From sequence record PP579741.1: a stretch of 64,000 nucleotides of DNA; one strand, 5' to 3'. Every line of letters begins with the position of its first letter. The first letter of the stretch is position 1. The position numbers and the translations under genes are program-made. Source of the DNA: Enterobacter phage KKP_3711. Of this stretch, positions 22,327 to 53,365 are shown one piece after another. The notes beneath the pieces were generated by a model that was given only the letters and a program-made list of their open reading frames with translations, was not told where the DNA came from and searched no databases.

Positions 22327-22334
22327 TCCATAGA

Positions 22335-22363
22335 TACGAAAAAGGAGGCCGAAGCCCCCTTTC
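22335..22363 (-). terminator. hairpin plus T-run terminator or attenuator on the - strand, upstream of the SbcD gene
   Basis: On the - strand: AGGGGGC-ttcg-GCCTCCT followed by TTTTT. Confidence 0.4.
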
Positions 22364-22368
22364 TTTTA

Positions 22369-23494: not shown

Positions 23495-23590
23495 TATTAT
23501 ACACCAAATTTTGTATATTAGGCAAGTAAAATTTTTATTTATTTGCCTAAGCTTTGGAGAAGAAATCCTTTCGTTTCAAACTATGAGAAT

Positions 23591-23619
23591 ATTATATCAA
23601 TTTTGAGGATGTTTAGCAA
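23591..23619 (-). promoter_or_regulatory. T5 early-type promoter on the - strand (TTGCTA-N17-TATAAT)
   Basis: -10 corresponds to plus 23591-23596 and -35 to plus 23614-23619. It is part of a 30-bp element that recurs at 35163-35196. Confidence 0.5.
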
Positions 23620-28016: not shown

Positions 28017-28076
28017 TTATTCTCCTCTATGTAAGAAAGTTCAACTTCAGTGTTCCTTCTCAAACTTACATAAATA

Positions 28077-30427: not shown

Positions 30428-30461
30428 GATGTTTCCTGATACGCATGCTTGCGTCTTTCTA

Positions 30462-30500
30462 CAAAACAAAAAGGGGAGGAGACATTAGCCCCCTCCCCTT
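30462..30500 (-). terminator. rho-independent terminator or attenuator on the - strand between the D5-like and helicase genes
   Basis: AAGGGGAGG-N11-CCTCCCCTT hairpin followed by TTTTTGTTTTG on the - strand. Confidence 0.5.
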
Positions 30501-30513
30501 AGGAGATTATTGA

Positions 30514-31275: not shown

Positions 31276-31283
31276 GTTATTTA

Positions 31284-32039
31284 TTATCCTTTAGTATTTT
31301 CGATTAATTCGTTAATAGAGATGACAGGAATGTCATACTCTAGAGCTTTAAGATATGAAGAGGAGCTACGTTTGCTCTCATCTTCGCAGATCAAATATTT
31401 GACATCTTTTGTCACAGATTTCTTAACTGTGAACCCAAGAGATTCCAAATGTGAACTGGCGTCTGTCCTGTTCTTGAAATCTTTCAGGCTACCAGTAATG
31501 CAAATGATAATACCGTTAGATTGAGAAATTGGTGCCGTAACATTAGTTGACGTTTTACCAAATTTCCAAGGTACTTCCATTATATCCTTGCCAACAAGTG
31601 AATCTTTCCATGATTTAAGATTTTCACCTGCCTTGCCGTCTGCTTTAACATCTTCCAGATTATTAAAGTTAACAGCTAGCTTCCTTGCAGCAACTTCACC
31701 GATCAAAGGAATACCGAGCGATCCTAGGAATTGACCGAATTCCATTTCTCCATGAAGTTTTTCTTCCAGTTCCTTTGCTAGCTTGTCTCCAGTTTTTACA
31801 CCTACTGCTTCATGCAAATCATCCAGAGTTACATAAAACAGTTCAGAAATCCTTACAAGTCCTAGCTTCTCAATAGTAGCTGGGCCAAAGCCTTTTAACT
31901 TCATCTTTTTACAGAAGTTCTCTAATAACTTTGAGGATTGTGCAGGACAGGATTCTGAATTACGACAGAATAGCTGAGCATTTACTAATTCCAACTTACC
32001 ACCACAAGAGGGGCAAGAGGTTGGCATTTCGATTTTCAT
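31284..32039 (-). CDS. ligB: NAD-dependent DNA ligase, subunit B (Zn finger, HhH, BRCT), 251 aa
   Basis: LigA-type zinc finger CPSCGGKLE...CRNSESCPAQ, HhH (GFGPATIEKL) and a C-terminal BRCT (ICITGSL...). Confidence 0.75.
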   Translation of the reverse strand: MKIEMPTSCPSCGGKLELVNAQLFCRNSESCPAQSSKLLENFCKKMKLKGFGPATIEKLGLVRISELFYVTLDDLHEAVGVKTGDKLAKELEEKLHGEMEFGQFLGSLGIPLIGEVAARKLAVNFNNLEDVKADGKAGENLKSWKDSLVGKDIMEVPWKFGKTSTNVTAPISQSNGIIICITGSLKDFKNRTDASSHLESLGFTVKKSVTKDVKYLICEDESKRSSSSYLKALEYDIPVISINELIENTKG

Positions 32040-32228
32040 TTACTCGTTGTTGCCTCTTCAATTTATATAAATATTATAGCAATAATTTTGACTCTGAGCA
32101 ACTACATTTTTAAAGTATTTGCTTGAGGCTTATTGCTTTGAGAGGTTATCCCGAATCAGTGAATATAGTATATACCTCTGATTCGAGAAAGTCAATTGTA
32201 GTTTATTTTTCTGGATAAGAAATCGGGG

Positions 32229-33194
32229 TTAATCAACTCGTTCAACAATTTTTGGAATAACACCACCAGAACGAATTACCCTGACTTGACATCCTAACTC
32301 TAAACCTAGGGCATTGATATAATCAATGTTGTTAAGGGTAGCTTTTGTAATCCTAGCATCATCAATAACTATTTCTTCGAAATGACCTACTGGAGTTACT
32401 TTACCAGATTTACCTACATCCCATGTTACTGCTAGTAATGTAGTAACTTCACCTTGTTCATCAACTTTGATAGCATAGGCTCCACGAGGGAACTTATTAG
32501 TCCAACCTAAACGATTAAACTCATTATTGCTATTAAGTCTGACTACTCTACCGTCTGACGGGAACCAAGATAATCTATTAGTCCCTAATACACTAATAAA
32601 GCCATGATTTTCCAGCCACTGCATATCTTCGGTATATGTTCCATGGCAACCCACCTTTCCAACTTCACACTGAATACCATATGCTACGAAAGTAAGTTCA
32701 GCTTCATCAATACGATTTTGGAATTCTTTGGGATCTTTAAGACCCATAGCACCAGAAGCATAGTTTCGCATATTTTCTACTGGTTTAGTAACGGTAACTT
32801 CACCAGTAATTTGAGTTGGAACTTTCTGACTGATAGATAATGGGATATTCAGAAGTTTGGCATTTTCTGTAACATCACGTCCTTTAATACCATCACCGCG
32901 AGTTAGTACTTGAACTAAACGCCCACCAATATACAGTAAAGATATTGCGCATCCATCTAGCTTAGCTGTTTCTACCTGGTCTAGTGACTTAAAGGGTACT
33001 TCATCACCACGATCGAAATATACTTTTTGCAAGGAATACATGCGGTATAAGTGAGGTACATCACCAGTCGGACCGATGGAACCTTCCGCTTGAGGAAAAC
33101 GTTTTACTAGACAATCATATTCTTCATCAGAAATAATTGCCATACCATTGTAATATGTTTCCTGGCACTGCTCAATAAAGCTCTTTACGTTCAC
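32229..33194 (-). CDS. ligA: NAD-dependent DNA ligase, subunit A (adenylation and OB domains), 321 aa
   Basis: KxDG adenylation motif (ETAKLDGCAISLLY) plus further ligase motifs. It is separated from ligB by a 189-bp spacer. Confidence 0.8.
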   Translation of the reverse strand: MNVKSFIEQCQETYYNGMAIISDEEYDCLVKRFPQAEGSIGPTGDVPHLYRMYSLQKVYFDRGDEVPFKSLDQVETAKLDGCAISLLYIGGRLVQVLTRGDGIKGRDVTENAKLLNIPLSISQKVPTQITGEVTVTKPVENMRNYASGAMGLKDPKEFQNRIDEAELTFVAYGIQCEVGKVGCHGTYTEDMQWLENHGFISVLGTNRLSWFPSDGRVVRLNSNNEFNRLGWTNKFPRGAYAIKVDEQGEVTTLLAVTWDVGKSGKVTPVGHFEEIVIDDARITKATLNNIDYINALGLELGCQVRVIRSGGVIPKIVERVD

Positions 33195-33820
33195 ACAATT
33201 TCTCCAGCACGTTTTTTGTAAAGTAAATCTAAATGACCTTTAACACCTAGATTATAGCATGGAATATTATATCGAGTGGCTAGCTTCCAAGCACTTGCAG
33301 TACCTCCCAATGCATTACCAAAACGATCTGTCTCAGCATAGCAAATAAGAAATTCTGAAGGAGTATTAAGATCACGTCCTAAAACCTGATACATATTACG
33401 AATGTGTGCTTCTCTAGCAAATCCACGTAAAAATTGACCTTTAGGATGAATACTAAACATTAAATCCTCTGCTTCTTCATAATTATCCCACTCAGAAGGA
33501 TCTAATTCACCCAGTCGACCATACTTTACATTAAAACGTTTATTTGGTACATAAATTTCTTGTTTAAGACGAGTACTACTAATCATCGCCTTTTGTTTGT
33601 GCTGATATTCTGCTCCTCGCTGAAAAGCATAATCAGAACCATCTGCTCTACCAGATCTTAGTATGTAATCAGCACCGTACAATACAACTGCTATATTACT
33701 CATTAAATCTGTAATATTTTCAGGAGTATTTCGTGAACCCACTCCTGTATAGAATTTAGACTTCATAAAATTTAGGTTCCCTACTATCTCCGTGCCATGT
33801 AAAATCTTTACATAATCCAT
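33191..33820 (-). CDS. SLOG / DprA-like Rossmann-fold protein, 209 aa
   Basis: TGVGSRNTPEN...VVLYGADYILRSGRADGSDYAFQRGA resembles the GSR/SG.A.G.D core of DprA/Smf and LOG-type SLOG domains. The true start may be the internal MKSKF. Confidence 0.4.
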   Translation of the reverse strand: MDYVKILHGTEIVGNLNFMKSKFYTGVGSRNTPENITDLMSNIAVVLYGADYILRSGRADGSDYAFQRGAEYQHKQKAMISSTRLKQEIYVPNKRFNVKYGRLGELDPSEWDNYEEAEDLMFSIHPKGQFLRGFAREAHIRNMYQVLGRDLNTPSEFLICYAETDRFGNALGGTASAWKLATRYNIPCYNLGVKGHLDLLYKKRAGEIV

Positions 33821-34025
33821 AGAAAGATGTTTTTACAATTCTTTCAGAGTTAGGTGAGTATATCTCTACCATAAGTTGATTATGTTCATAAGTATATGAA
33901 ACTAATTTGTATCCACTTCTACTTTTATGGTACTTTTGTCCATTAATTTTCTCAGTCCAGACCAAAATTAAAGACTGCCCTATAAAGGGTAGAGGCTTAT
34001 ATGCATCTATTATAATAGGTTTCAT
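33756..34025 (-). CDS. hypothetical protein, 89 aa
   Basis: ORF whose 3' end overlaps the annotated start of the next gene. Confidence 0.35.
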   Translation of the reverse strand: MKPIIIDAYKPLPFIGQSLILVWTEKINGQKYHKSRSGYKLVSYTYEHNQLMVEIYSPNSERIVKTSFYGLCKDFTWHGDSREPKFYEV

Positions 34026-34085
34026 TATGATATCCTCATTGATTTATAAGAATATTATAATAAATTTTTAACGTTTAAGCAAGTA

Positions 34086-34119
34086 ATAAAAAAGCCAAAG
34101 ACACTATTCATCTTTGGCT
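34086..34119 (-). terminator. rho-independent terminator on the - strand after the PC4-like gene
   Basis: AGCCAAAG-N11-CTTTGGCT hairpin followed by TTTTTT on the - strand. Confidence 0.55.
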
Positions 34120-34418
34120 TTGTTTGCTTCTATCATTACTTCTTGCAGAACCTCTGCCTCACTCAGTATTTCCACAAGTGCTTTGAATAGTCTAGAAGTT
34201 GAATCGAGGTTATACGGCATAGAGAAGCCAGCTTTTGTAGGAACCCATTCATTTTCTAGATCCATAATCCAATAGCGAATTCCGAGGTACAGATTGCCCC
34301 GGAATTCTGATATAGTCAATCTAACCTGTTGGCCATCATCTTTTTCCCAGATGATTACAGATTGTTCATCCTCATGACCAACATAGTCTTGATTAACTCT
34401 TTCGCTTTGGTTTGCCAA
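34104..34418 (-). CDS. PC4/Sub1-like ssDNA-binding protein, 104 aa
   Basis: QVRLTISEFRGNLYLGIRYW...PTKAGFSMP matches the conserved PC4 fold motif (..EFRG...LDIREW...PTKKGISL). Confidence 0.55.
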   Translation of the reverse strand: MANQSERVNQDYVGHEDEQSVIIWEKDDGQQVRLTISEFRGNLYLGIRYWIMDLENEWVPTKAGFSMPYNLDSTSRLFKALVEILSEAEVLQEVMIEANKAKDE

Positions 34419-34695
34419 ACGGAGAAGCTTTATCCAACTCCGAATTTAGTGAGGTAATACGACGGATCTTTTTCGTAGGGAGATAGCGGAAGCTATCATT
34501 TGTACGACTAAATACCAGAATTTCGTCCTCTTTAGCGGGACGTGGATTTTCATCCTTGAAACGTTTTGCGAGGTATTTGTCAGTAAAATCTATAGTACCT
34601 TGTAGGTAAGTAACTCCGCGTTCACGGAGTTTCTCATACTTGATATAGAATTCACCAAACTGGTCACACTGCGCAAGAATTGTTGCTTTATCCAT
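34393..34695 (-). CDS. hypothetical protein, 100 aa
   Basis: ORF only. Confidence 0.4.
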   Translation of the reverse strand: MDKATILAQCDQFGEFYIKYEKLRERGVTYLQGTIDFTDKYLAKRFKDENPRPAKEDEILVFSRTNDSFRYLPTKKIRRITSLNSELDKASPFGKPKRKS

Positions 34696-34717
34696 GTTTG
34701 CTTCCTTCTATATTGGA

Positions 34718-35119
34718 TTATTTGGTTACTTTACGGATCAGTTCTGCCAGATGCAGAGCGGCTTTACCAGTAAGTTTTTCGATAATTTCAGCGTCGATAT
34801 CTTCATCGGTAACACCACCGTCAGTCAGAGCTGCTTTCAGTTCTGCGTGAGCAGTTGCCTTAGAAGTACGAGAACCACCTTTAGATTCACCAGATTTTGC
34901 TTTGCTGGTGGATGCAGTTTGTTCTTTCTTAACATAGCAACCATCTTTAGACAGTTTCATACGGAAACCGTTACTAGATGTACCGTAAGCCTGAGCAATT
35001 TCTGCAACTACTTCAGATGAATGTTTTGGAGCATCAGCACCCAATTCTTCCATTCGAGACAGATACTCTTGTTTCATCTCTGCAAAAACTTCGTCAGTCC
35101 ACTTAAATACTTCTGCCAT
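34718..35119 (-). CDS. hypothetical Lys-rich protein, 133 aa
   Basis: ORF immediately downstream of an early-type promoter on the - strand. Confidence 0.45.
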   Translation of the reverse strand: MAEVFKWTDEVFAEMKQEYLSRMEELGADAPKHSSEVVAEIAQAYGTSSNGFRMKLSKDGCYVKKEQTASTSKAKSGESKGGSRTSKATAHAELKAALTDGGVTDEDIDAEIIEKLTGKAALHLAELIRKVTK

Positions 35120-35183
35120 ATTATGTTTATCCTTTATGTTGTTTAAGAAAAGTTTTCATAGTTCGTTTCCAAACTATGAGAAT

Positions 35184-35212
35184 ATTATATCAAGTTAATA
35201 GGTACTAAGCAA
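35184..35212 (-). promoter_or_regulatory. T5 early-type promoter on the - strand (TTGCTT-N17-TATAAT)
   Basis: -10 corresponds to plus 35184-35189 and -35 to plus 35207-35212. It shares a 30-bp element with 23572-23603. Confidence 0.5.
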
Positions 35213-35221
35213 CCACAATTT

Positions 35222-35515
35222 TTAAATTATTACCCAATCGTCCGCACAATGATCTTCCTCATCTAGCTTAAAACTATAAGGTATAGTATCTCCATCCCTG
35301 CACTTACACATAGGGATTTCGCTAACACGTACTTCTAATTCCCCCACAGTACACTTATTTCGTTTGGAAAATAATACTTCAAAACTAGTAATAATATGAG
35401 TTCTGCTAGTTAGTTCCAGCCAGAACTCTAAATACTTCTTATTCCAAGAAGGGCGAGTTACTGAAATAGTAACTCCTGCCTGTGTCATACTCGCTCTGAT
35501 TTCATCAAGAGTCAT
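35222..35515 (-). CDS. hypothetical protein, 97 aa
   Basis: ORF only. Confidence 0.4.
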   Translation of the reverse strand: MTLDEIRASMTQAGVTISVTRPSWNKKYLEFWLELTSRTHIITSFEVLFSKRNKCTVGELEVRVSEIPMCKCRDGDTIPYSFKLDEEDHCADDWVII

Positions 35516-36213
35516 TAGTCTTTATCCTTATTTGCTTGCTTACGTGCTTTTGCTAAAGCCTCATTAAGCAAAGGAATTGTATTTTCACGAGTCCACCCAT
35601 GATAACCTAATGACTTAATGTTAACACCTAGCTCCTTAAAAGGCTTCATGCTACCTAAATCCCAACCATGTTGGTGAACAAATTTTTGACGATCTTCTGC
35701 TAACAACCACACACGATATACATCGTTATCCATTACTTTACGGATTACACCCATGCACTGATAAGCAGATACCCACACTTCTTCATCTAATTCAAAAGAA
35801 TCAGCCATAAGCTGTTCTGGAATTTCAGGTGGATTCAATTCCAAAGGTTTTGCAGGATCTAACTTCTCAGAAAATTTAAGGTTTGCACCTCTGCGTTCTA
35901 GTTCTGCTTTAACCATTGCAGTTGAACGATACAAACGATTTGCAATTTCATCTAAAGAATCACCTTGTAAGTAACTTTCAATGATGATTACAATTTCATG
36001 TGGTTGTAGAGGTGTTCCGCGCTTTTTCTTTTTCATTTCAGCAGACATTACCTGCTGATCTTGCCATTCTTGGATTAGACGTTCCATCGTAGCATTAGAA
36101 CCAACGCCTAAAATTTCACAAGCACCTTTTTTGGTATTACCGTCTTCTAGCCATTTGATGGCTTCTTTGAATTTTTCATCAGAAATGGTATGTGCTTTAA
36201 TTCCACGAGCCAT
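35515..36213 (-). CDS. putative HTH DNA-binding protein, 232 aa
   Basis: N-terminal HTH-like segment (KKGACEILGVGSNATMERLIQEW). Downstream of promoter 36244-36272. Confidence 0.4.
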   Translation of the reverse strand: MARGIKAHTISDEKFKEAIKWLEDGNTKKGACEILGVGSNATMERLIQEWQDQQVMSAEMKKKKRGTPLQPHEIVIIIESYLQGDSLDEIANRLYRSTAMVKAELERRGANLKFSEKLDPAKPLELNPPEIPEQLMADSFELDEEVWVSAYQCMGVIRKVMDNDVYRVWLLAEDRQKFVHQHGWDLGSMKPFKELGVNIKSLGYHGWTRENTIPLLNEALAKARKQANKDKD

Positions 36214-36243
36214 AACAGTCTCCTCTCATCAATTTATAAAACT

Positions 36244-36272
36244 ATTATACGTGAAATTTAACTATTTTGCAA
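36244..36272 (-). promoter_or_regulatory. T5 early-type promoter on the - strand (TTGCAA-N17-TATAAT)
   Basis: -10 corresponds to plus 36244-36249 and -35 to plus 36267-36272. Its transcribed-strand downstream sequence TTATAAATTGATGAGAGG matches the conserved downstream element of the + strand early promoters. Confidence 0.55.
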
Positions 36273-36280
36273 ATACAAAT

Positions 36281-36526
36281 TTATTCAAAATCATCGAAAC
36301 GCTCTTGGCTTTGGTGGTACTGTATTAGTTCAGAGATTGTTCTATAGGCTTTTTTCAAATCGTAAGGAATAGTGGTTGATAACCTAATAGTCCTATCTTT
36401 GTAAAGCCAGTCTGCAATATCTGGAATACGAGCCAATAAAGGCGGGACAACCCTACAAATAGGATCTCCCGCCTTTTTAGGTTTAGAGACTTTGGGACGT
36501 TTATACACAGGATCCCATTTACTCAA
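36281..36526 (-). CDS. hypothetical protein, 81 aa
   Basis: ORF only. Confidence 0.4.
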   Translation of the reverse strand: MSKWDPVYKRPKVSKPKKAGDPICRVVPPLLARIPDIADWLYKDRTIRLSTTIPYDLKKAYRTISELIQYHQSQERFDDFE

Positions 36527-39261
36527 ATTTCAGTCACCTCTTCTCCATGTGTATGGATATTTAACAGAGTTCTAGGAATACCAATACCTTCCTTAGCACA
36601 ATATATTTTAACCCATTCTACCACATGATCATATTCAAGATTATAACCAATACCTATTGAATACAGAACATGCGACAATCTACTAGCTTTATAATGAAAA
36701 CCAAAAGCGTGATAAAAACCTTTCTTATTACTAGAGATGTATTGACGCAATGCACCAATTTTATCTTTAGCTGCTCTGGCTTTCTTAATTAATGGGATAA
36801 TATATGATGCAGACTGCATTAACATAATAGCTCGTTCTTCAGGTCTATTTTTAACATACCACACCGCATCTTCCATTTCAATCTCTTCGACTGTCTTTTC
36901 TAGATACATTGCACACTTTTGTTTTTCTTCAAAAGCATTCTGGTACATTGGAATAATACCTTGAGCCTGTGAAGCCATAATAGCTTCCGCATGTTTAACT
37001 TTCTCGGCAGCTCGATTAGGTTTAATAATATCCCAATCTGCAATATCTGCCTTGCTGAGAATGTCTATCTCTGCACCCTGATCTGCTAACAAATAACGTA
37101 AAGTACCTGCATAGGCTTGAGATTCACGCAAATAACGAGCTTCCATAATTTCTTTAGAACCAGTTAATATTTCACCAATTCCACTGAAAATATCTTTTAA
37201 TGTAACCCCATCAATATAAGGACTACTACACTGTGGTGCCACATAATAACAGATAAACTTAGCTCCACGATCTCGACGAATTGCCTGGAATCGAACATAC
37301 GGAGTATGGATTGGAGTATCAGTTACAGAAAATACGTTATCAAAATACCTAAAGTCAACCCCGTTAGTAACACTTGGACTACAGATTAAACCAGCTACTT
37401 TCTGTTTGAGAAGCTCTTTGTTAGTATATTGCAGAATCTTTCTGTTTACTTTCTCTAGTGAAGAATCACTATGAATAGCTCGAACAACTCCTGAAAACTG
37501 TTCACAGATTACTTCTAGATACGCATTAATGGTACTAGGTCCTTCGGTTGTTACCATTAAGGACTTCTGACCAGCTACTAAAGATTCAAAGAACCATGTC
37601 CAAACTGCTTTAGATGTTGGAACTTCTACTGCGCGAACTCCATCAAGCATTTTACGATCATGAAGAATTAGATCGATATCTTTTTCATCTTCAATAATTT
37701 GAGAATATAATTTGATAGTTTCTTCTGATAAGTCACCATCTGCCAGAACAACATAAGTTGCACTGTTAATTAATTCTGCAAATGCTCGTAAAATCTGTGG
37801 ACGTCTTGCTTCGGTTAATGAAGATTTCAGAAGATCATTTAAGATTGCGTCTGCTTCATCCAAAAACAGAAAATCACAACCACATCCTAAAAGTCTATGA
37901 GTAGAATGAATTGTAATTGACAATCTCTCTACATCACCACTAGCGTATGCATCAGCACCACCATCAGAATATGATTCCATTCCTAGTTTTAAAGCATTTG
38001 CTTCTACTAGAGATACAGTGTTTGTAATTGCAACACATCGTTTACCAACTAATTCTGGAGATTTTAACCATTGAGCTACAGTATGAGTTTTACCAGACCC
38101 AAGACTGGCCTTAATAAACGTTAGTTTATGTTTGGCCGGAAGCTCTTTAATGTCAAGATAATTACCTTTAGCATTTGGTACAATTACATTAACACCAGGC
38201 ATACTAATTTCACGTTTCGCATTAGATACCCATGCATGAACTGCTGCTTTTCTGGCGTTATTAACATAATCTGCGGGAACTTTCTGTTTATCATTATCCA
38301 TTACATATCTTTCAATATGTGGTAGAATGGCTCTGTCCAATGCATCGAAAGAATAACCTTCGGCAAGAGCTTTATGATAAATACGAAGAATGTGACGAGT
38401 ATACCATTCATCACTTTGTTCTGGCAGATTTTCTAACTCACGTTCAAGAATTGGAGAAGGAGTTTTCTGGAAGTTAATTTTTCCATAAAGTTCAAACTCT
38501 TTATCTGTTACTCTGGAACGGTTATAGGTTTTCTCAATATCCCTGTAGTAATCAGGTGGAGTCATTTTTGCACCCTTACGTTTAATAAGGCGAGGCAAAT
38601 TCTCCACAACAAAGGGATCTTTACAACGTTGGAATGTCGGACTAGCAAAATATAGAATGTGAACGCGATGATAAAGTGAGGTATCTATTAATGCTTTCTT
38701 TGTTCCCATCTTTTCACGATACTCATTATTTAGAGATGCAAAAAGTTGCCCTAACTGAATAGGGTTCAAAGCAATATTGCTTTCTAAGAACATGTGTGCA
38801 CGAATACCTGACTTAATACCAGCAGATGCTGAGCCTTGAACAATATATCCTAAATCTTTAGGGAAAATGTCTGGACGTAAGTCATGCAAAATACTTGCAA
38901 TGTGTTCACCAACCTTATACATATTACAAGGGTTTACGGATGACTCTAGGTTATCGATGTCCAAACATACAATATTACTTTCCACCAGAGGTGAAAAAGC
39001 CTCGGATACCCTTCTTAATGAACTTGGGCTATCTCCGATATATCGTTCTCGAATTACAGCAACATCCTGTCGTCCCATGAGTGATTCTACAAAATCAAAC
39101 ATTTCGTCTAAAGATTCCGGATACACTTCATCCTCTAGCACAAACCTAGATACTTTGGGAACTGACTGGAGTTCTACATAGTTGCCACTGTTGTCCATAC
39201 CAAATTGTTTTGAAAACCTAGTATTATTACGACGACCCCAAGCTTTCAATAATGTAAACAC
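36523..39261 (-). CDS. replication-origin-binding-type SF2 helicase, 912 aa
   Basis: Walker A KASLGSGKTH, DEAD-like FLFLDEAD and a helicase C domain. Its size and position match the T5 protein annotated as a putative replication origin binding protein. Confidence 0.6.
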   Translation of the reverse strand: MFTLLKAWGRRNNTRFSKQFGMDNSGNYVELQSVPKVSRFVLEDEVYPESLDEMFDFVESLMGRQDVAVIRERYIGDSPSSLRRVSEAFSPLVESNIVCLDIDNLESSVNPCNMYKVGEHIASILHDLRPDIFPKDLGYIVQGSASAGIKSGIRAHMFLESNIALNPIQLGQLFASLNNEYREKMGTKKALIDTSLYHRVHILYFASPTFQRCKDPFVVENLPRLIKRKGAKMTPPDYYRDIEKTYNRSRVTDKEFELYGKINFQKTPSPILERELENLPEQSDEWYTRHILRIYHKALAEGYSFDALDRAILPHIERYVMDNDKQKVPADYVNNARKAAVHAWVSNAKREISMPGVNVIVPNAKGNYLDIKELPAKHKLTFIKASLGSGKTHTVAQWLKSPELVGKRCVAITNTVSLVEANALKLGMESYSDGGADAYASGDVERLSITIHSTHRLLGCGCDFLFLDEADAILNDLLKSSLTEARRPQILRAFAELINSATYVVLADGDLSEETIKLYSQIIEDEKDIDLILHDRKMLDGVRAVEVPTSKAVWTWFFESLVAGQKSLMVTTEGPSTINAYLEVICEQFSGVVRAIHSDSSLEKVNRKILQYTNKELLKQKVAGLICSPSVTNGVDFRYFDNVFSVTDTPIHTPYVRFQAIRRDRGAKFICYYVAPQCSSPYIDGVTLKDIFSGIGEILTGSKEIMEARYLRESQAYAGTLRYLLADQGAEIDILSKADIADWDIIKPNRAAEKVKHAEAIMASQAQGIIPMYQNAFEEKQKCAMYLEKTVEEIEMEDAVWYVKNRPEERAIMLMQSASYIIPLIKKARAAKDKIGALRQYISSNKKGFYHAFGFHYKASRLSHVLYSIGIGYNLEYDHVVEWVKIYCAKEGIGIPRTLLNIHTHGEEVTEI

Positions 39262-42777: not shown

Positions 42778-44610
42778 TCAAGATACTTTTAAATTCATGT
42801 GTTTTATACGACCCATAACCTCAGCTTGCTTACCTGGGTTAAATGGGCGACTGCCAGGAGATCCTAAATATCCACAAACACGTTTAGTAACTTCAATATT
42901 TGTGCTACCGCATCCAGGACAAATAAACCCTTGATCTGAACTTACACTATCTCCCATAAAACCACAATCCTGACAAGTATCAATAGGAATATTCACACCA
43001 ATATAATGAGAGTGATTCAATCCATAATCAATAACCCACTCTAAGGCTGGTAAGTGCTTTTTCATTTGTGGAAGTTCTACAAAAGAAATATTACCACCGT
43101 TAGCAATACTAGTAAAGTTAGACTCATAATCGTATTTAACATTAGGAGCAACCTTTTCTCTAACATCTAAGTGATGGCTGTTAGTTAAATAGCCTTTATC
43201 TGTGAGCCAGTCATACTCTGGATATTGTTCCGCAATCAAATTATTAAAACGATTACATAGTGATTCACTAGGAGTAGCATAAAGACTGAATCCAAGTTCA
43301 GTTTCTTTGGCTTTCTCGTCACAAAATGTTTTCATATAATTTAAAACTTGCTTGGTAAATTCAATGTGATCTACCTGTTTAGCACCTTCTCCGTAAAGTG
43401 CTTGACACATTTCATAAACACCAATATATCCTATAGATACAGAGGCTCTACCTTTAAATGAATCCCAAACTAAATCATTAGGATTTAATCGCAGACCAAA
43501 TCCACCATGCATATACAAAATAGGGGCCTGCTTGGCTCGTACTCCTTTAAGTCTACTAAATGCCCAATCATGAGCTTTATATGCTAACTCCAAATATTCA
43601 TCTAATACACCAAAGAAGCTAGTTTCTCGCTCTTTACTTTCTATAGCTACCATAGGAAGATTTATAGATACAACTCCCAGGTTATTACGTCCAGCAGTTT
43701 CACCTGTCGGAATTGCACTTAAGAAGGAGCGACATCCCATAGGGAATTTAAAATCTCCTGTAACTGCACATACCCGCTCGTAACTCACATAATCTGGATA
43801 CATTCTTTCTGCTGTGCAGCGCAGGGCTAGTTTTTTAATGTCATAGTTTGGATCCCCTTCTTTTTTATTAAGCCCTTCTTTAACTGCAAAGATAAGCTTA
43901 GGGAATACAGCTGTGTGTCCTGAAGCACCCAGACCTTTCATACGAACTTCTAGAATTGATTTTTGAACCATCCTAGCTTCCCAGGATTCTCCCAAACCAA
44001 ATCCAAAAGTAACGAAAGGTTGCTGACCGTTAGAATTAAACAAAGTATTAACTTCATACTCTAATCCCTGCATAGCACTAGCTACTTCTTTTTCTGTCAT
44101 TTCAGTAGCATATACAGCAGCCTTCTTATCATTTTTGAGCCAACGAAGTCCTGTTGCGAGGTGTTTATCATATGATTTACGTACATACGGGGCTAATACT
44201 TCGTCGATACGATCAATAGAAGTACCACCATATTGGCAGCTAGACACCTGGGCAATAATCTGAGCTGTGATAGCTGTTGCTGTAGAGATAGATTTAGGAG
44301 TTTCAATTTCTGCACCACCTACTTTTAGGCCTTTCTCTAGCATATTAGCTAAATCTACTAAGCAGCAATTAGTATAGCCTTGAGCACGGTAATCCATATC
44401 ATGAATATGAATTTTACCCTTATTATGTGCGATTAATAGTCCTGCGGGAATTTCTTGGCTAACAATATATTTGCTAACTTCTCCAGCAATCATATCACGT
44501 TGGGTAGGAAATTGTTCGGATGCTTTATTTGCATTATTAAATAGGAGATCTTCATCAGCTTCCTGCTCTAGAATCCCATATACGTTATTAATTAGTTCTT
44601 GTTCGTTCAT
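42778..44610 (-). CDS. nrdD: anaerobic ribonucleoside-triphosphate reductase, 610 aa
   Basis: C-terminal glycyl-radical motif RVCGYLGS and a Cys cluster CPGCGS. The overall NrdD architecture is present. Confidence 0.9.
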   Translation of the reverse strand: MNEQELINNVYGILEQEADEDLLFNNANKASEQFPTQRDMIAGEVSKYIVSQEIPAGLLIAHNKGKIHIHDMDYRAQGYTNCCLVDLANMLEKGLKVGGAEIETPKSISTATAITAQIIAQVSSCQYGGTSIDRIDEVLAPYVRKSYDKHLATGLRWLKNDKKAAVYATEMTEKEVASAMQGLEYEVNTLFNSNGQQPFVTFGFGLGESWEARMVQKSILEVRMKGLGASGHTAVFPKLIFAVKEGLNKKEGDPNYDIKKLALRCTAERMYPDYVSYERVCAVTGDFKFPMGCRSFLSAIPTGETAGRNNLGVVSINLPMVAIESKERETSFFGVLDEYLELAYKAHDWAFSRLKGVRAKQAPILYMHGGFGLRLNPNDLVWDSFKGRASVSIGYIGVYEMCQALYGEGAKQVDHIEFTKQVLNYMKTFCDEKAKETELGFSLYATPSESLCNRFNNLIAEQYPEYDWLTDKGYLTNSHHLDVREKVAPNVKYDYESNFTSIANGGNISFVELPQMKKHLPALEWVIDYGLNHSHYIGVNIPIDTCQDCGFMGDSVSSDQGFICPGCGSTNIEVTKRVCGYLGSPGSRPFNPGKQAEVMGRIKHMNLKVS

Positions 44611-45928: not shown

Positions 45929-48304
45929 ATGACCGAATCTAAAGTAAACTATTTCCTAAATCCTGCAAACCAAGGAAATTCAATGCAAACTAAACTAAAA
46001 GAAGTAATTAAACGTGATGGTAGCATCGAACCATTTATGCCAGAAAAACTAAATAACTGGGCAAAATGGTCTTGTAAAGGATCTACCGCTAGCTGGTCAA
46101 GTCTTGTACTTACAGCTGTAAAACAAATTTCTGACAGTCGTGTAACGACTGATTTTCTGCAAGAACTTCTAATTACTACGGCAATGAACTTGTTAGATGA
46201 AGATCCTGCATATGATAAAGTTGCAGTAGAGTTGATGATCGCACAACTTCGTAAGCAACTGTTCGATTCTTATTACCCACCACACCTTAAATCTTTCCAT
46301 GATCACATGGTTGAGATTGGACAGTGGTCTAACAAAGCTGAATGGCTGAGCGCAGAAGATTTCGAATATCTTAACAGCATTATCGATCATGAACGAGATC
46401 ATTTGTTTACTTCTGCTGGATTTAAACAGTTTAAGGATAAGTACTCTCGTCGTTCTACTATTACCAATGAGATCTTTGAGACTCCACAGTTCGCCTACAT
46501 GGGTATGGTAATGGAAATGTTAGCTTTACCTCACTGGGATCTTGATGATGCAGAAGAACTTTACAATGCACTTTCTCTCCAGAAAGTTAACGTTCCAACA
46601 CCTCCACTGGTTGGACTTCGCTCGGGCGATCGTGGTTTTGCTAGTTGCTGTCTGGTTGATGCAACTGATACCCTACAAAGTATTGATGCAGCTGAACATG
46701 TTGTATTTAACATGGTGGCAGCTCGTGCAGGTATCGGTTATCATCTGGAAAGCCGTTCATTAGCAGATCCAGTTCGTAATGGTACTTTCCCACACTCTGG
46801 TAAGTTACCATACTATCGTCATATTGATCGTTCAGTAAAATCCAATACTCAGCAGTCTCGTGGTGGTTCTGCAACAGTATACTACGCGTTCTTCGATCCA
46901 GAAATTATCAAGATGATTCAAGTTAAGAGCCAGCGTTCTGCTCAAGAAGATCAAATTGATAAAATGGATTACAACCTAAAATATAACCAGCTGTTATTCA
47001 AGCGTTATGTTAAGAAGCAAGATATTACTCTTATGAGTTTCTTCTATGCTCCAGAAGTATGGGAAGCATTCCATAGTGGGTCTTATGAAGAGTTTGAGCG
47101 CTTGTATATTGCAGCTGAAAAACGCCTGGAAAACGAAACTAAAGTAGGTTTCAAAGGTGAACGTCTGCCAGTAGCTCCAAAGATTCCAGCAGCTGATATT
47201 CTGGAAGAATGGGTAACTGTTCGTATGGAAACTGGTCGTGCCTATGCAATGGATATTGCGGAAACTAACCGAAACTCTCGTTTTAGTGACCCTATTCGAA
47301 TGTCTAACCTTTGCGTGGAAATTGTTCAGCCTACATATCCTATTCGACATGTAGTAGATATGTATCGTAAACCAGAAGAGTTAGATCTGATGGATCCTTC
47401 AGAATATGGAGAAGTCTCTCTGTGTAACCTGGGGGGTATTGCTCTTGGTCGAATCCATTCTTTGGAAGAATGGGAATCTATTAGCTACATTCTCTTGAAG
47501 TTTGTTGATTCAATCATTGACATTCAGGATTATCCATTCCCTACTCTAGCATATACAGCTAAAAAGCGTCGTAATGTGGGTATTGGTCTTATGAATGCTG
47601 CTGGAGCAATGGCAGAAGTAGGTTTAGCTTATGAAGGTGTAGAAGCCCGTAACTGGATTCACCGCGAAGCTGAAAAAGCATCCTATTTCCTACATAAAGC
47701 TTCTGTTCGTCTTGCTCAAGAGGTTGGTGCAGCTGAATGGTTCCATCGTACTCGCACCTCAAAAGGTGAATTGCTTGTAGATACGTACAAGAAAACTGTA
47801 GATGATCTGGTAACTGTAGGATTAGAAATGGATTGGGAGAGTCTGCGCAGCGATATTCTGAAATATGGTATGCGTAACTCTGTACTTATGGCTAACATGC
47901 CTGGTGAATCCAGTTCTGTACTGCTGGGGGTTACTAACTCTGTAGAACCTCCTCGTGGTCCTCTAACTGTTAAGACTTCTGGTGTTAACAAGGTAGTTTC
48001 TCTGGTTCCTAATATTAACGATTGGGATATCTTTGTAAACTATAAATATGCTTTTGAGTTAGATCGTACAGAGCATATTAAGTGGATTGCAGTTCTTCAG
48101 AAATTTACATGTCAGAGTTCTAGTGCTCAGCTATACTATGACTATAATAAATACCCTAAAGGTATTATTCCTCAGGCAGAAGTTATCAAAGACCTGATGA
48201 ACCAAACCAAGTATGGTATTAAAACTATCTATTACGCAAACTTTGATGTTGATAATGGTGGTGCAGCAAACTCTGGCTGCGAAAGCGGAGCTTGCCAAAT
48301 CTAA
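45929..48304 (+). CDS. nrdA: ribonucleotide reductase large subunit with N-terminal ATP cone (the probable true start is ATG 45983)
   Basis: ATP-cone signature VIKRDGSIEPF, active-site PTPPL...SCCL, and a C-terminal GCESGACQI identical in pattern to E. coli NrdA. ATG 45983 has an AAGGAA SD. Confidence 0.9.
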   Translation: MTESKVNYFLNPANQGNSMQTKLKEVIKRDGSIEPFMPEKLNNWAKWSCKGSTASWSSLVLTAVKQISDSRVTTDFLQELLITTAMNLLDEDPAYDKVAVELMIAQLRKQLFDSYYPPHLKSFHDHMVEIGQWSNKAEWLSAEDFEYLNSIIDHERDHLFTSAGFKQFKDKYSRRSTITNEIFETPQFAYMGMVMEMLALPHWDLDDAEELYNALSLQKVNVPTPPLVGLRSGDRGFASCCLVDATDTLQSIDAAEHVVFNMVAARAGIGYHLESRSLADPVRNGTFPHSGKLPYYRHIDRSVKSNTQQSRGGSATVYYAFFDPEIIKMIQVKSQRSAQEDQIDKMDYNLKYNQLLFKRYVKKQDITLMSFFYAPEVWEAFHSGSYEEFERLYIAAEKRLENETKVGFKGERLPVAPKIPAADILEEWVTVRMETGRAYAMDIAETNRNSRFSDPIRMSNLCVEIVQPTYPIRHVVDMYRKPEELDLMDPSEYGEVSLCNLGGIALGRIHSLEEWESISYILLKFVDSIIDIQDYPFPTLAYTAKKRRNVGIGLMNAAGAMAEVGLAYEGVEARNWIHREAEKASYFLHKASVRLAQEVGAAEWFHRTRTSKGELLVDTYKKTVDDLVTVGLEMDWESLRSDILKYGMRNSVLMANMPGESSSVLLGVTNSVEPPRGPLTVKTSGVNKVVSLVPNINDWDIFVNYKYAFELDRTEHIKWIAVLQKFTCQSSSAQLYYDYNKYPKGIIPQAEVIKDLMNQTKYGIKTIYYANFDVDNGGAANSGCESGACQI

Positions 48305-48310
48305 TTAACA

Positions 48311-48364
48311 GTCCAGCCGAAAGCAAAATTTCATTTGCCAGTAGGCTGGATTTTTTGTTATAAT
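48311..48364 (+). promoter_or_regulatory. terminator-like hairpin and promoter (TTGCCA-N18-TATAAT) between nrdA and nrdB
   Basis: TCCAGCC...GGCTGGA stem followed by TTTTTTG. -35 at 48335-48340 and -10 at 48359-48364. Confidence 0.35.
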
Positions 48365-48394: not shown

Positions 48395-50107
48395 ATGTCT
48401 ACAATTTTTAACCGTAACTGGGATTCTAATGAGAAACGTTTATTCCTGGGACAAGAGCTGGGTCTAGCAGATTATGTTAATGTTCTGTATCCACAGTTAG
48501 AAGATTTAGCGCTGAAACAGCGTTCACAGTACTGGATTGAAACTGAAATCTCTCTAGAGAATGATAAGAAACAATGGCCACTGCTTCCTGAGCATATTCG
48601 TAAGAAAACCAAATTAAACCTTGGTTGGCAGACTATGGCAGACTCTTTCATTACTCGTGCTCCAGAGAATGCGATTATGAAATTGGTTTCCCGTCCAGAA
48701 TTGGAAGGTATGCTAATTCAGTGGTCTTATTTTGAGAATATTCACAGCCGTGCTTATTCCAACATTATCCGTAACGTACTTCCCGATCCTTCAGAATTTA
48801 TTGATTCTGTAAAAGATAATGAAGAAGCGTTTGCTCGTATCGCAATGCCTGTAGCAGTTCTAGATGAACTTGCAGAAGTAGGGGATTATTTTCTTGCAGT
48901 TCGTGATGCTGAGCCTAATACTTATCCAGAAGATGAACTGGCCAAGGTAACAGAAGAATGTCAGCTCCTTCTGTTAAAAGCATACTTTGCAATTTATGGC
49001 TTAGAAGCTATGATGTTTTACGCTTCTTTTGCATGTACTTTTGCTCTGGCAGAAAATGATATTCTGTCTGGTATTGCTAAAAACTTGCAGTTAATCGCTA
49101 AAGATGAAGCACTGCATACAGTAATGTCTAAAGAGATTCTTCAAATTCTGTTTAAAGAAACTCCAGCACATATTGTAGAAGAAGCTAAATTAGCTGCTCC
49201 ATTAATTCTGCGTGAAATTCTGAAAACAGAAATTAACTGGGCGCACTATATTTTCCCAGATGATGAACCTGGACTGGTGGGTCTTAATGCAGAACTTTTA
49301 GTAGAGTACCTGTATTATATTGGTCGCATTGCTTTCCAGAATATTGGAGTAGCTTGGCCAGAAGATTTACCTGTGATTACTAAAAACCCAATCCCATGGA
49401 TTAACTTCTGGATTGAAACTAAGAATCAACAACCGGCTCCTCAGGAAATTCAGTTGTCCAACTATCGAGTTGGTCAAACTGCTGAAGCTTCTGATGATGA
49501 TATTAGCAAATTAGGGGAAAGAATTCGATTGGTAACAGCTATTTTTGCAGTAGGTTCAGAAGGTCAATTTGGTTATGAAGGGAGACTACCTTGGGGTAGT
49601 TTTCCTCAGGAATTGGAAGCATATCATTCAGCTTTAGAACATGCTTTCACTGCCAATTATAATCCTAGAGTTTTACTAGTAGGATCTAATACGTGGAAGA
49701 GTTTACCTAAAAAAGCAATAGATAGACTTTTAGGTTATACCACCAATGTTTGGGTATTATCTAGCGATGGATTTGTAAATCCTAGAGGTGGAGAAAAACT
49801 CTCAATTTTAACAAATATTGGTTATGCACTTCCTGAAAAGTGGGATCATCATAATGTTGTTTGTATTGGTGGGGCATTTCTTTTAAAAACCCTCTTCGAC
49901 CATTGTCATATTACAAAAGCATACGTTTCCACTATTTATTGGGATAAACTTGTATGGCATCCAGAAACTAAGAGCAGTTTCTTGGCAGATACATGGCTTC
50001 AGCCTCCAATTGAAGATGCTACTAAAGTGCTAATGAAAACAGGTTACATGCTAGTACCAGAACAAGATAATTGTCTACGTTTTAAACAGGAGTTACATTA
50101 CCTTTGA
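48395..50107 (+). CDS. nrdB: RNR small subunit NrdB fused in frame to dihydrofolate reductase (570-aa ORF). DHFR could alternatively initiate internally at ATT 49523 or TTG 49529
   Basis: Residues 1-~376 are NrdB, with di-iron ligands and a C-terminal tail ([19 protein letters not shown]) resembling the E. coli tail ([22 protein letters not shown]). The next residues, [11 protein letters not shown]...RLPWG...[12 protein letters not shown], are the DHFR N-terminal strand and the PWN/GR.TW motifs. There is no stop between the two parts. Confidence 0.75.
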
Positions 50108-50958
50108 AACAGTATCTAGAAGTAGGAAAAAGAATCCTTGAAGAAGGTGTATGGGTAACAAATCCTAGGACAGGGGTTCGTTGTCTAACCATAATTGATG
50201 CTGATTTTACGTTCAATGTAGGGGAGGGAGAATTCCCTCTTGTAACTACAAGAAAATCATTTGCAAAACAAGCAATTATGGAACTTATTGGATATCTACG
50301 TGGATATAGTTCTGCTGCTCAATTCCGTGAAATTGGTGTAAATACCTGGAATGCTAATGCTAATGAAAATGAAGCATGGTTAAGGAATACAAACCGTAAA
50401 GGGGAGGATGACATGGGTCGAGTATATGGTGTACAAGGTAGACAATGGACTAATTCTAGAGGAGAGGTATTTGATCAATTAGAGAAAATCTATATGAATC
50501 TTTCTCAACGAGTAGATGATCGGGGGGAGATTTTAACCTTCTGGAATCCAGGAGAGTTTTCTCAAGGTTGCTTACGTCCTTGTATGCATACACATCAATT
50601 CTCTATTTTGGGAGATACTCTTCATTTAAACTCTTTCCAGAGGTCTAATGATTTTCTTCTAGGACAAGTGTTTAATATGGTGCAGTGCTACACGCTCTTA
50701 GCACTAATGGCTCAAATTACAGGTCTTAAACCAGGGTTGGCCAAACAGAAGATCATAAATCTACACGTTTATGAAGATCAGTATAATGTATTAATGGAGC
50801 ATAAACAGTTTGATCGTAAACCTTTTGAAAGTCCAAAACTGTGGATTGATCCTGATATCAAAACTCTGGAAGATGTTCTTACTTGGGTAGATAAAGATTG
50901 TTTCCAAGTATTTGATTATAATCATCACCCTGCAATTTCTTATCCATTTACTGTTTAA
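50104..50958 (+). CDS. thyA: thymidylate synthase, 284 aa, with a TTG start overlapping the preceding stop (TTGA)
   Basis: The N-terminus [15 protein letters not shown] aligns with E. coli ThyA MKQYLELMQKVLDEG. The catalytic region is conserved ([10 protein letters not shown]). Confidence 0.9.
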
Positions 50959-52565: not shown

Positions 52566-52845
52566 TGAAAAGAACCCGCTTGGATTTATCCCAAAAAGAA
52601 ATCCAAAAGCTACTTCTAGACGAAGTATTAAACCAGCTAACATCGGGGAACCCTCTACGCGTCTTCCGCCAGCCCCAAAAAGTCGTTTTGTCGATTATGG
52701 GGAGAATCACGAGGAAATGCTTGCGAGAGAAGCTAAAGCACAAGCTGAAATAGAACGTAAGAAACTGTGTACAGGCATCCTCTATAATAAAGGAGGATAT
52801 CAGTATATTTATTCAGAGGAACAAGCAAAAAATCTTGGAAAGTAA
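52528..52845 (+). CDS. hypothetical protein (start uncertain)
   Basis: This frame uses more A/T at third codon positions than the overlapping 52565..52753 frame, which fits the codon usage of the rest of the phage. A protein-like C-terminal segment is present (HEEMLAREAKAQAEIERKK). Confidence 0.3.
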   Translation: MTFYHLKRFQLYNEKNPLGFIPKRNPKATSRRSIKPANIGEPSTRLPPAPKSRFVDYGENHEEMLAREAKAQAEIERKKLCTGILYNKGGYQYIYSEEQAKNLGK

Positions 52846-53365
52846 GTTATCAAACGAAGAATTAATAGGAATAGATACTCTTAAACAAAGGATAGATTAT
52901 GACCCTGTTAAAGGTACCTTAACTTGGAAATTCTTACCTGAAGGTATTCCCGATCCATCAGGATTTAATAAAAGACTAGCAGGAAAAGTAATAACCACAT
53001 TAAAAAATGGTTATATATCTTTACAATTAAATGGTATACAGTTATACGGACATAGAGTAGCTTTCTACTTATATCATGAATGGCTCCCAGTACAGGTAGA
53101 TCACGAAGACAGAGTCAGATCCAATATTAAGATAGACAATTTAAGGCCTGCTTCTCATTCTGAAAATATGAGAAATAGAACCGTTTCTTCAAAATCTGCT
53201 CTAGGCATTAAAAATGTAAGTATGGACTCGAAAGGCCTTTATTATGTAAAAATACGTTTTGAAGGTAAAAGATTAAGTAATTCTTTCGCAACGTTAGAAG
53301 CAGCCATTAGATGGAGAGATGAAAAATTACTAAGTTTACATGGTGACTTCGCGTCCTGTGGCTAG
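52835..53365 (+). CDS. HNH homing-endonuclease-like protein (HNH plus AP2-type DNA-binding domain), 176 aa, TTG start
   Basis: YGHRVAFYLYHEWLP..VDHEDRVRSNIKIDNLRPASHSENMRNR carries the HNH core (H-N-H with DH..N..NL). The C-terminal part is AP2-like (GIKNVSMDSKGLYYVKIRFEGKRLSNSFATLEAAIRWRD). Confidence 0.65.
   Translation: MESKLSNEELIGIDTLKQRIDYDPVKGTLTWKFLPEGIPDPSGFNKRLAGKVITTLKNGYISLQLNGIQLYGHRVAFYLYHEWLPVQVDHEDRVRSNIKIDNLRPASHSENMRNRTVSSKSALGIKNVSMDSKGLYYVKIRFEGKRLSNSFATLEAAIRWRDEKLLSLHGDFASCG

What the first reader, a model, noticed from the sequence alone, without database searches (positions are those of the whole stretch)
48395..50107. nrdB reads straight into dihydrofolate reductase with no stop: either a fusion protein or an internal non-AUG start
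The NrdB homology ends at ...[19 protein letters not shown]. This corresponds to the extreme C-terminal peptide of E. coli NrdB that binds NrdA. The very next residues ([11 protein letters not shown]...RLPWG...[12 protein letters not shown]) align with the DHFR N-terminal beta strand (MISLIAALAV) and the PW/GR.TW motifs. Either a bifunctional 570-aa NrdB-DHFR is made, which would bury the R1-binding tail, or DHFR initiates internally. Candidate internal starts are ATT 49523, which aligns exactly with Met1 of DHFR and sits 4 nt after GGGGA, or TTG 49529. A TTG start is used by thyA 600 bp downstream, and thyA itself overlaps the stop by TTGA. So the whole nrdA-nrdB-frd-thyA block appears tightly translationally coupled and uses unusual starts.
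Basis: seen in the sequence. Interest (0 to 1): 0.55.

Follow-up and report, generated by a model that had tools for sequence, protein, structure and literature searches.

The report
One-base error fuses nrdB and DHFR
The apparent 570-residue ribonucleotide-reductase/dihydrofolate-reductase "fusion" most likely comes from one extra A in a nanopore-only phage genome assembly.

Summary
The 570-aa ORF (48395..50107) is present in the window as written. The window is Enterobacter phage KKP_3711 (GenBank PP579741; the ORF is XAG95907.1). This T5 relative was sequenced by Nanopore only and assembled with Flye, with no polishing step reported.

An independent assembly of what is evidently the same phage (Logan contig from SRR28469845) matches the window over 38,237 columns with 0 substitutions. 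It differs by three one-base homopolymer-length changes. One is the A-run at 49518-49520 (AAA in the window, AA in the contig).

- **With AA:** NrdB ends ...KLGEEFDW* (379 aa, stop TAA 49533-35). This matches the C-terminus found in every relative checked.
- **DHFR gene (frd):** it starts at TTG 49529 and gives 192 aa. It overlaps the nrdB stop by 7 nt (TTGGTAA).
- **Relatives:** they have GTG, ATG or TTG at that position. T5 has an ATGA overlap. Two relatives have a homing-endonuclease-like gene inserted between nrdB and frd.
- **Wider search:** no protein spanning both domains appeared among the best 150 matches in a 1.84-billion-representative search.

The fusion is almost certainly an assembly artefact. 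The TTG-start alternative is correct but ordinary. ATT 49523 is not the conserved start. The thyA TTG/TTGA overlap is real and conserved.

The parts
48395..50107 (+). 570-aa ORF as deposited (GenBank XAG95907.1, 'hypothetical protein U7154_000140'). It is an artefactual join of nrdB and frd.
48395..49535 (+). nrdB (class Ia RNR beta subunit). The true gene is 379 aa once one A of 49518-49520 is removed, ending ...KLGEEFDW with stop TAA at 49533-49535.
   Evidence: The corrected translation is identical to P0126. The same-phage contig L006/L007 calls a 379-aa gene. Aligned to E. coli R2 at E=6e-66, with the metal ligands, Tyr122 and Tyr356 equivalents conserved.
49518..49520 (+). AAA run containing one surplus A. 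This is the only difference from the independent assembly across 21,141 aligned columns around the genes.
49521..49535 (+). GAATTCGATTGGTAA = EFDW*. This is the native NrdB C-terminus and stop, stranded in the +1 frame of the deposited sequence.
   Evidence: relatives end EEFDW / EEFEW / EEFGW / EEFDF
49529..50107 (+). frd (T5-type dihydrofolate reductase), 192 aa. It has a TTG start and overlaps the end of nrdB by 7 nt (TTGGTAA).
   Evidence: The exact 192-aa product is called as a separate gene on the Logan contig (P0121). phrog_316 at E=1e-21. PDB DHFRs at E~1e-4. T5 frd at 33% identity, E=7e-27. Six stand-alone homologues start at query residue 379.
49514..49518 (+). GGGGA, a Shine-Dalgarno-like element. 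It lies 11 nt (10 nt after correction) upstream of TTG 49529. GGAG or GGGG sits at the equivalent place in T5, L003 and L004.
   Evidence: sequence comparison; function is inferred
50104..50958 (+). thyA (thymidylate synthase), 284 aa. It has a TTG start and overlaps the frd stop as TTGA.
   Evidence: Pfam Thymidylat_synt 228.9 bits, residues 2-283. The TTG/TTGA overlap is conserved in L003, L004, L005, L007, L008 and L009; T5 has ATG.
48335..48364 (+). Promoter-like site TTGCCA-18-TATAAT (11 of 12 matches, TG extension) in the 90-nt nrdA-nrdB spacer.
   Evidence: T5 has an annotated promoter between nrdA and nrdB
45929..48304 (+). nrdA (RNR alpha subunit), 791 aa. It does not overlap nrdB.

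Best explanation
nrdB, frd and thyA are three separate, overlapping genes arranged as in phage T5. The deposited KKP_3711 genome carries one spurious A in the run at 49518-49520 (GGGGAAAGAATTC instead of GGGGAAGAATTC). It lies 15 nt before the nrdB stop. The surplus base shifts the last four nrdB codons (EFDW*) into the frame of the overlapping frd gene, so nrdB appears to read through into frd.

In the real phage, NrdB (379 aa) should end in a free acidic/aromatic tail, ...KLGEEFDW. DHFR (192 aa) should be initiated separately at TTG 49529, inside the last codons of nrdB (TTGGTAA). ThyA should be initiated at TTG 50104 (TTGA overlap).

Shown: the sequence differences, the conservation of separate genes, and the conserved start positions. 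Inferred: that the extra base is a base-calling or consensus error rather than a mutation in the stock; that terminating ribosomes re-initiate at the weak TTG starts with help from the upstream GGGG/GGAG elements; and that transcription starts at the promoter-like site 48335-48364.
For: 1. The window is Enterobacter phage KKP_3711. The 570-aa ORF is exactly XAG95907.1.

2. The describing paper states Nanopore-only sequencing (Rapid Barcoding, Guppy 6.3.8) and Flye 2.8.1 assembly. The words 'polish', 'Medaka' and 'Illumina' do not occur in it (PMC11172527).

3. Logan contig SRR28469845_14 matches window 38395-59535 over 21,141 columns with 0 mismatches and 1 gap, which is the A at 49518-20. It matches window 20922-38017 over 17,096 columns with 0 mismatches and 2 gaps. 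All three differences are homopolymer lengths: A3/A2, T6/T5 and C5/C4.

4. Relatives settle which version is right. At 49518 all four distinct relatives agree with the Logan contig. At 33212 all six relatives agree with the Logan contig. At 22355 the six relatives agree with the window's run length. Both assemblies therefore carry homopolymer noise. At both discordant sites that lie inside genes, the deposit is the outlier.

5. Deleting one A gives a NrdB identical to P0126 (379 aa...GEEFDW*). The TTG-initiated frd product is identical to P0121.

6. Every relative has separate genes. In L008 and L009 a 196-aa T5orf172-domain gene sits between them.

7. None of the 120 listed hits in the 5.8-billion-protein search covers more than 66% of the ORF. 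No protein spans both domains among the best 150 of 1,238 hits against 1.84 billion representatives, and six stand-alone DHFR-type hits begin at query residue 379.

8. Homopolymer indels that produce frameshifts are documented as common in long-read-only phage assemblies (PMC10438801).
Against: The reads themselves could not be inspected. That SRR28469845 is the same phage, and that its reads are noisy at homopolymers, are both inferred, the first from 38 kb of identity without substitutions.

All three discordant sites are shorter in the Logan contig. At one of them (C5/C4) the Logan contig is the one that is wrong. A deletion bias in that assembly is therefore possible, so its call at 49518 is not independent proof. 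The decision rests on agreement with the relatives.

A 3-nt run is short for a classical homopolymer error. However, it abuts a GGGG run and a GAATTC site.

A genuine, recent frameshift in the laboratory stock would look identical in the deposited sequence.
Confidence: 0.9

Rival explanations
1. The extra A is a real, recent frameshift mutation in the KKP_3711 stock. The phage would then make a NrdB(lacking EFDW)-DHFR fusion. It might also make free DHFR from TTG 49529. For deoxynucleotides it would depend on host RNR or on its own anaerobic NrdD (42778..44610).
For: The deposited consensus has AAA. The Logan contig is demonstrably wrong at another homopolymer (C4 against C5), so it cannot settle the matter alone. 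Phage nucleotide-metabolism genes are often dispensable in rich laboratory hosts (general knowledge).
Against: Two assemblies of the same phage disagree at exactly this base and only at homopolymers, with 0 substitutions in 38 kb. That is the pattern of read noise, not of divergence. A second deposit-only frameshift occurs 21 nt from the stop of another gene (33191..33820). All relatives and about 40 cluster members read keep the separate 379-aa NrdB. The mutation would remove the conserved tail terminus.
Confidence: 0.06
2. Programmed +1 ribosomal frameshifting at GGG-GAA-AGA. AGA is a rare, 'hungry' codon, and GGGG would allow tRNA-Gly to slip. This would restore a normal NrdB tail, while non-shifted ribosomes would make the fusion.
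For: The sequence context alone: a GGGG run followed by the rare codon AGA at 49514-49522.
Against: No relative has the extra base, so no relative needs a shift. The same-phage contig lacks it. Nothing here shows conservation of a shift site.
Confidence: 0.01
3. An evolved bifunctional NrdB-DHFR enzyme that channels nucleotide metabolism, analogous to DHFR-TS.
For: Only the ORF continuity in the deposit.
Against: No second example among the best 150 matches from 1.84 billion representatives, nor among the 120 listed hits of the 5.8-billion-protein search. The junction has no linker. It destroys the conserved NrdB terminus and reuses the frd upstream region. Close relatives (96-98% identical DNA) have two genes, some with a mobile gene between them.
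Confidence: 0.005

Closest known systems
Phage T5 (Tequintavirus) nrdB-frd-thy gene cluster (T5.094-T5.092, AY543070)
   Same: Same gene order: phoH, nrdA, nrdB, frd, thy, rnh. nrdB and frd overlap at stop/start, as do frd and thy. NrdB is about 66% identical and DHFR 33% identical. An SD-like GGAG lies upstream of the frd start.
   Different: T5 uses ATG for both frd and thy, with 4-nt (ATGA) and 1-nt overlaps. KKP_3711 and its near relatives use TTG, GTG or ATG for frd with a 7-nt overlap, and TTG for thyA with a 4-nt overlap. T5 has an HNH endonuclease gene between nrdA and nrdB.
Homopolymer indel artefacts in long-read-only phage assemblies (for example the HYPPA study, PMC10438801)
   Same: Single-base length errors in base runs that create frameshifts, split genes or merge genes, and that only short-read polishing removes. 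Here two assemblies of one phage differ at three such sites and at nothing else.
   Different: The run is only 3 nt long. The outcome is an in-frame merger of two overlapping genes rather than a truncated gene, so it looks like a fusion protein.
Genuine bifunctional nucleotide-metabolism fusions (protozoan and plant DHFR-TS; glutaredoxin-NrdB fusions)
   Same: Two enzymes of the dNTP/thymidylate pathway in one ORF. Grx-NrdB architectures (PF00462+PF00268, 450 aa) did appear among distant hits (P0107-P0111).
   Different: Those fusions are conserved across lineages and leave the NrdB C-terminus free. The ORF here is unique to one deposit and would bury and truncate that terminus.

Membership tests
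Class Ia ribonucleotide reductase beta subunit (NrdB/R2, Pfam PF00268) | Significant match to the family profile | tested here: met
   134.5 bits against a cut-off of 33.6, residues 28-319. phrog_86 at E=1.7e-114. E. coli R2 at E=6e-66.
Class Ia ribonucleotide reductase beta subunit (NrdB/R2, Pfam PF00268) | Di-iron ligands (E. coli D84, E115, H118, E204, E238, H241), radical Tyr122, and pathway residues Trp48 and Tyr356 | tested here: met
   In the alignment to 1PIY, the motifs [27 protein letters not shown] and SNYRVGQ line up with the E. coli residues. This was read by eye from the alignment.
Class Ia ribonucleotide reductase beta subunit (NrdB/R2, Pfam PF00268) | Free C-terminal tail that docks on the alpha subunit | tested here: inconclusive
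   Not met in the deposited frame, where the tail runs on into DHFR. Met after removing one A (...KLGEEFDW*, identical to P0126). Binding itself is not testable here.
Dihydrofolate reductase (Pfam PF00186 DHFR_1; T5 frd type) | Match to the Pfam profile above the gathering score | tested here: not met
   22.4 bits against a cut-off of 25, E=1.1e-4.
Dihydrofolate reductase (Pfam PF00186 DHFR_1; T5 frd type) | Homology to phage DHFR families and to solved DHFRs, with the characteristic motifs | tested here: met
   phrog_316 at E=1e-21. T5 frd at E=7e-27. Candida and human DHFR chains at E=1e-4 to 2e-3 over about 140 residues. Motifs LPWG, an acidic residue 6 positions after the Trp, GSNTW and IGG are visible in the sequence. 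Enzyme activity was not tested.
Bifunctional fusion enzyme (a conserved multidomain ORF) | The fused architecture recurs in relatives | tested here: not met
   No spanning protein among the listed hits. All eight loci examined have two genes. An independent assembly of the same phage has two genes.
Overlapping, translationally coupled genes (stop/start overlap) | The start codon of the downstream gene overlaps or abuts the upstream stop, and this is conserved | tested here: met
   nrdB/frd overlaps: TTGGTAA, GTGGTAA, ATGGTGA, TTGA and ATGA. frd/thyA overlap: TTGA in six loci.
Overlapping, translationally coupled genes (stop/start overlap) | Downstream translation depends on upstream translation | not testable with these tools
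   This needs reporter fusions or ribosome profiling.

The most novel reading that the evidence does not exclude
The surplus A is genuine in the KKP_3711 stock. The phage would then express a NrdB-DHFR fusion lacking the NrdB docking terminus, alongside TTG-initiated free DHFR. This would be a natural experiment showing that the phage's aerobic RNR beta subunit is dispensable, or that it tolerates a C-terminal fusion.
Probability: 0.05. Interest if true: 0.35.

Novelty: not a real feature. Interest (0 to 1): 0.07.

Why it matters
It matters mainly for data quality. GenBank PP579741 and protein XAG95907.1 (UniRef100_A0AAX4Q4K0) appear to carry a frameshift artefact that creates a chimeric 'protein'. 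That chimera already has a downstream effect: in the 90%-identity clustering it bridges unrelated 379-aa NrdB and 192-aa DHFR sequences into one cluster. A second probable frameshift of the same kind lies at about 33212.

Biologically, the locus is the ordinary T5-type nrdB-frd-thyA operon. The only mildly interesting real feature is the recurrent use of TTG or GTG starts embedded in the preceding gene's last codons.

Tried and rejected
- **Megablast of the ORF against the phage collection:** no match. The phage and its genus are absent from that collection, so T5-level relatives had to be reached by tblastn.
- **IMG/VR scan with the DHFR protein:** nothing found.
- **Look-up of a conserved 253-aa protein:** it did not return the same-sample contig. 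It did supply six roughly 97%-identical relatives, which were later used to settle the other homopolymer sites.
- **ATT 49523 as the frd start:** rejected. L004 has GTT there and ATG at the 49529-equivalent position, and T5 and the stand-alone homologues begin at the 49529 position. One NCBI-annotated relative (P0124, 'MRLVTAIF...') does use the ATT-equivalent codon, but that is an annotation choice, not evidence.
- **Programmed +1 frameshift at GGG-GAA-AGA:** rejected, because no relative carries the extra base.
- **Long hits (680-760 aa) as possible fusions:** rejected. Their two matched stretches both lie in the NrdB part of the query, as expected for NrdBs carrying a large insertion.
- **Treating the Logan contig as ground truth:** rejected, because it is wrong at the C5 run near 22355. 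Relatives were used to decide instead.

Full report

Yes, for the sequence as written. The ORF listing gives one ATG-initiated ORF at 48395..50107 (+) of 570 aa. The bases are shown.

- Pfam finds Ribonuc_red_sm at residues 28-319 (134.5 bits). It finds a sub-threshold DHFR_1 match at 380-512 (22.4 bits against a cut-off of 25).
- The C-terminal 192 aa match PHROG 316 'dihydrofolate reductase' at E=1e-21.
- They match solved DHFRs at E about 1e-4 and T5 frd at 33% identity, E=7e-27.
- The downstream ORF at 50104..50958 is thymidylate synthase (228.9 bits). It starts at a TTG that overlaps the stop as TTGA.

**2. What the window is**

An exact-sequence look-up identifies the 570-aa product as XAG95907.1, 'hypothetical protein U7154_000140 [Kononvirus KKP3711]'. 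This is Enterobacter phage KKP_3711, genome length 113,711 bp. The GenBank accession is PP579741.

The describing paper (PMC11172527) states that the genome was sequenced only with Oxford Nanopore (Rapid Barcoding Kit, GridION, Guppy 6.3.8). It was assembled with Flye 2.8.1 at a planned depth of at least 50x. The words 'polish', 'Medaka' and 'Illumina' do not occur in the text.

**3. The junction in relatives**

In T5 and HildyBeyeler, nrdB and frd are separate genes in different frames with an ATGA overlap. frd and thy overlap by 1 nt.

The large protein search returned only NrdB-length hits. The best is 98% identical and 379 aa long, and none of the 120 listed hits covers more than 66% of the query.

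Loci around the closest hits give the following:

| Locus | NrdB C-terminus | frd start | nrdB/frd arrangement |
|---|---|---|---|
| L003 | ...GEEFEW* | GTG | 7-nt overlap |
| L004 | ...GEEFGW* | ATG | 7-nt overlap |
| L005 | ...GEEFDF* | TTG | TTGA overlap |
| L008, L009 | ...GEEFDW* | ATG | A 196-aa T5orf172/MUG113-domain gene is inserted between the two genes |

The two genes are therefore separable units throughout this lineage.

**4. The decisive comparison**

The exact 192-aa product from TTG 49529 (P0121) is called as a separate gene on Logan contig SRR28469845_14. So is a 379-aa NrdB (P0126).

- That contig matches window 38395-59535 over 21,141 columns with 0 mismatches and a single gap. 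The gap is one A of the run at 49518-49520.
- The rest of the contig matches window 20922-38017 over 17,096 columns with 0 mismatches and 2 gaps.
- All three differences are homopolymer lengths: A3 against A2, T6 against T5 near 33212, and C5 against C4 near 22355.

The next-closest relatives are at most about 97% identical. This contig must therefore be the same phage, very probably the same read set. That is an inference; the SRA metadata could not be read.

Zero substitutions alongside three run-length differences is the pattern of consensus noise, not of evolution.

**5. Which assembly is right?**

I settled each site using relatives.

- At 49518, all four distinct relatives (L003, L004, L008, L009) lack the extra base.
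- At 33212, all six relatives (L010-L015) lack the extra T. The window's version changes the end of a conserved ORF from ...LLYKNVLEKLCERKELY* to ...LLYKKRAGEIV*.
- At 22355, the six relatives agree with the window's run length, so there the Logan contig is the one in error.

Both assemblies are therefore noisy at homopolymers. At both discordant sites that lie inside genes, the deposit is the outlier.

Deleting one A from the window gives a NrdB identical to P0126 (379 aa...[14 protein letters not shown], stop TAA 49533-35). frd is left unchanged. The native terminus EFDW* is intact in the +1 frame at 49521-49535.

Homopolymer indels that give frameshifts in coding regions are documented as typical of long-read-only phage assemblies. 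They can be corrected only by short-read polishing (PMC10438801).

**6. Does such a fusion exist anywhere?**

A full HMMER scan of 1.84 billion representatives returned 1,238 hits. No protein among the best 150 spans both domains.

- NrdB-type hits cover query residues 1 to about 375.
- The six DHFR-type hits (P0155, P0173, P0225, P0226, P0256, P0263) all begin with their residue 1 at query residue 379. That residue is exactly the TTG 49529 codon.
- The 680-760-aa hits have both matched stretches inside the NrdB part, so they are NrdBs with large insertions.

**7. How it most likely works**

nrdB, frd and thyA form a T5-type operon. A strong promoter-like site (TTGCCA-18-TATAAT with a TG extension, 48335-48364) lies in the 90-nt spacer after nrdA. 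nrdA is therefore not translationally coupled to nrdB.

- NrdB (379 aa) keeps the di-iron ligands, the radical tyrosine and the Tyr356 equivalent in the alignment to E. coli R2. It ends in a free acidic/aromatic tail.
- frd initiates at TTG 49529, inside TTGGTAA. A GGGG(A) element lies 10 nt upstream in the corrected sequence. T5, L003 and L004 have GGAG or GGGG at the equivalent place.
- thyA initiates at TTG 50104 (TTGA), with GGAG 11 nt upstream. This is conserved in six loci.

Termination-reinitiation coupling at these weak starts is inferred from the anatomy and was not tested.

ATT 49523 is not the conserved start. L004 has GTT there and ATG at the 49529-equivalent position.

**8. Rival explanations**

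- **A real frameshift in the stock (about 6%).** This cannot be excluded without the reads. The Logan contig is shorter at all three sites and is wrong at one of them, so a deletion bias in it is conceivable.
- **Programmed +1 frameshifting at GGG-GAA-AGA (about 1%).** This has no comparative support.
- **An evolved bifunctional enzyme (below 1%).** This also has no comparative support.

**9. Verdict**

The fusion interpretation is not supported. The 'internal TTG start' alternative is correct but is simply the normal frd start of an ordinary, already known gene arrangement. Interest is low. The useful outputs are a probable erratum for PP579741/XAG95907.1, and a warning that the chimeric ORF bridges NrdB and DHFR sequences into one protein cluster.

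Noticed in passing
window 33191..33820 (-), run at ~33207-33212: A second probable homopolymer frameshift in the deposit. The window has T6 where the same-phage Logan contig and six relatives have T5. As a result the ORF ends ...LLYKKRAGEIV* instead of the conserved ...LLYKNVLEKLCERKELY*.
   Followed up: yes
window ~22340-22365: Intergenic GC-rich hairpin followed by a T-run (GGAGGCCGAAGCCCCCTTTCTTTT). The Logan contig has C4 where the window and five of the six relatives have C5; the sixth, L013, has CCTCC, the same length. The independent assembly is therefore also homopolymer-noisy.
   Followed up: partly
L008 9603-10193; L009 11230-11820: In two relatives that are about 97% identical, a 196-aa T5orf172/MUG113-domain (homing-endonuclease-like) gene is inserted exactly between nrdB and frd. 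frd there starts with ATG (MSVTAIF...).
   Followed up: partly
window 52835..53365 (+): A 176-aa HNH_3-domain gene is present in the window and in the same-phage contig. The corresponding stretch does not align in L003 or L008, so it is likely a mobile endonuclease insertion.
   Followed up: no
L004 ~1244-1484 (P0002, 439 aa): One relative's NrdB carries an insertion of about 60 aa, rich in charged residues, that replaces [21 protein letters not shown] of the window protein.
   Followed up: no
protein cluster of P0001: The 90%-identity cluster mixes 379-aa NrdBs and 192-194-aa DHFRs, apparently because the 570-aa chimeric ORF links them. One NCBI-annotated member (P0124, MRLVTAIF...) uses the ATT-equivalent codon as its start.
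   Followed up: partly
window 48335-48364 and 48313-48350: A promoter-like TTGCCA-18-TATAAT lies upstream of nrdB. An inverted repeat CCAGCC...GGCTGG followed by TTTTTT lies just after nrdA (seen). The terminator scan did not call it because its loop is long.
   Followed up: partly
window 42778..44610 (-): The phage also encodes an anaerobic class III RNR (NrdD, 610 aa), divergently oriented from the phoH-nrdA-nrdB block.
   Followed up: no
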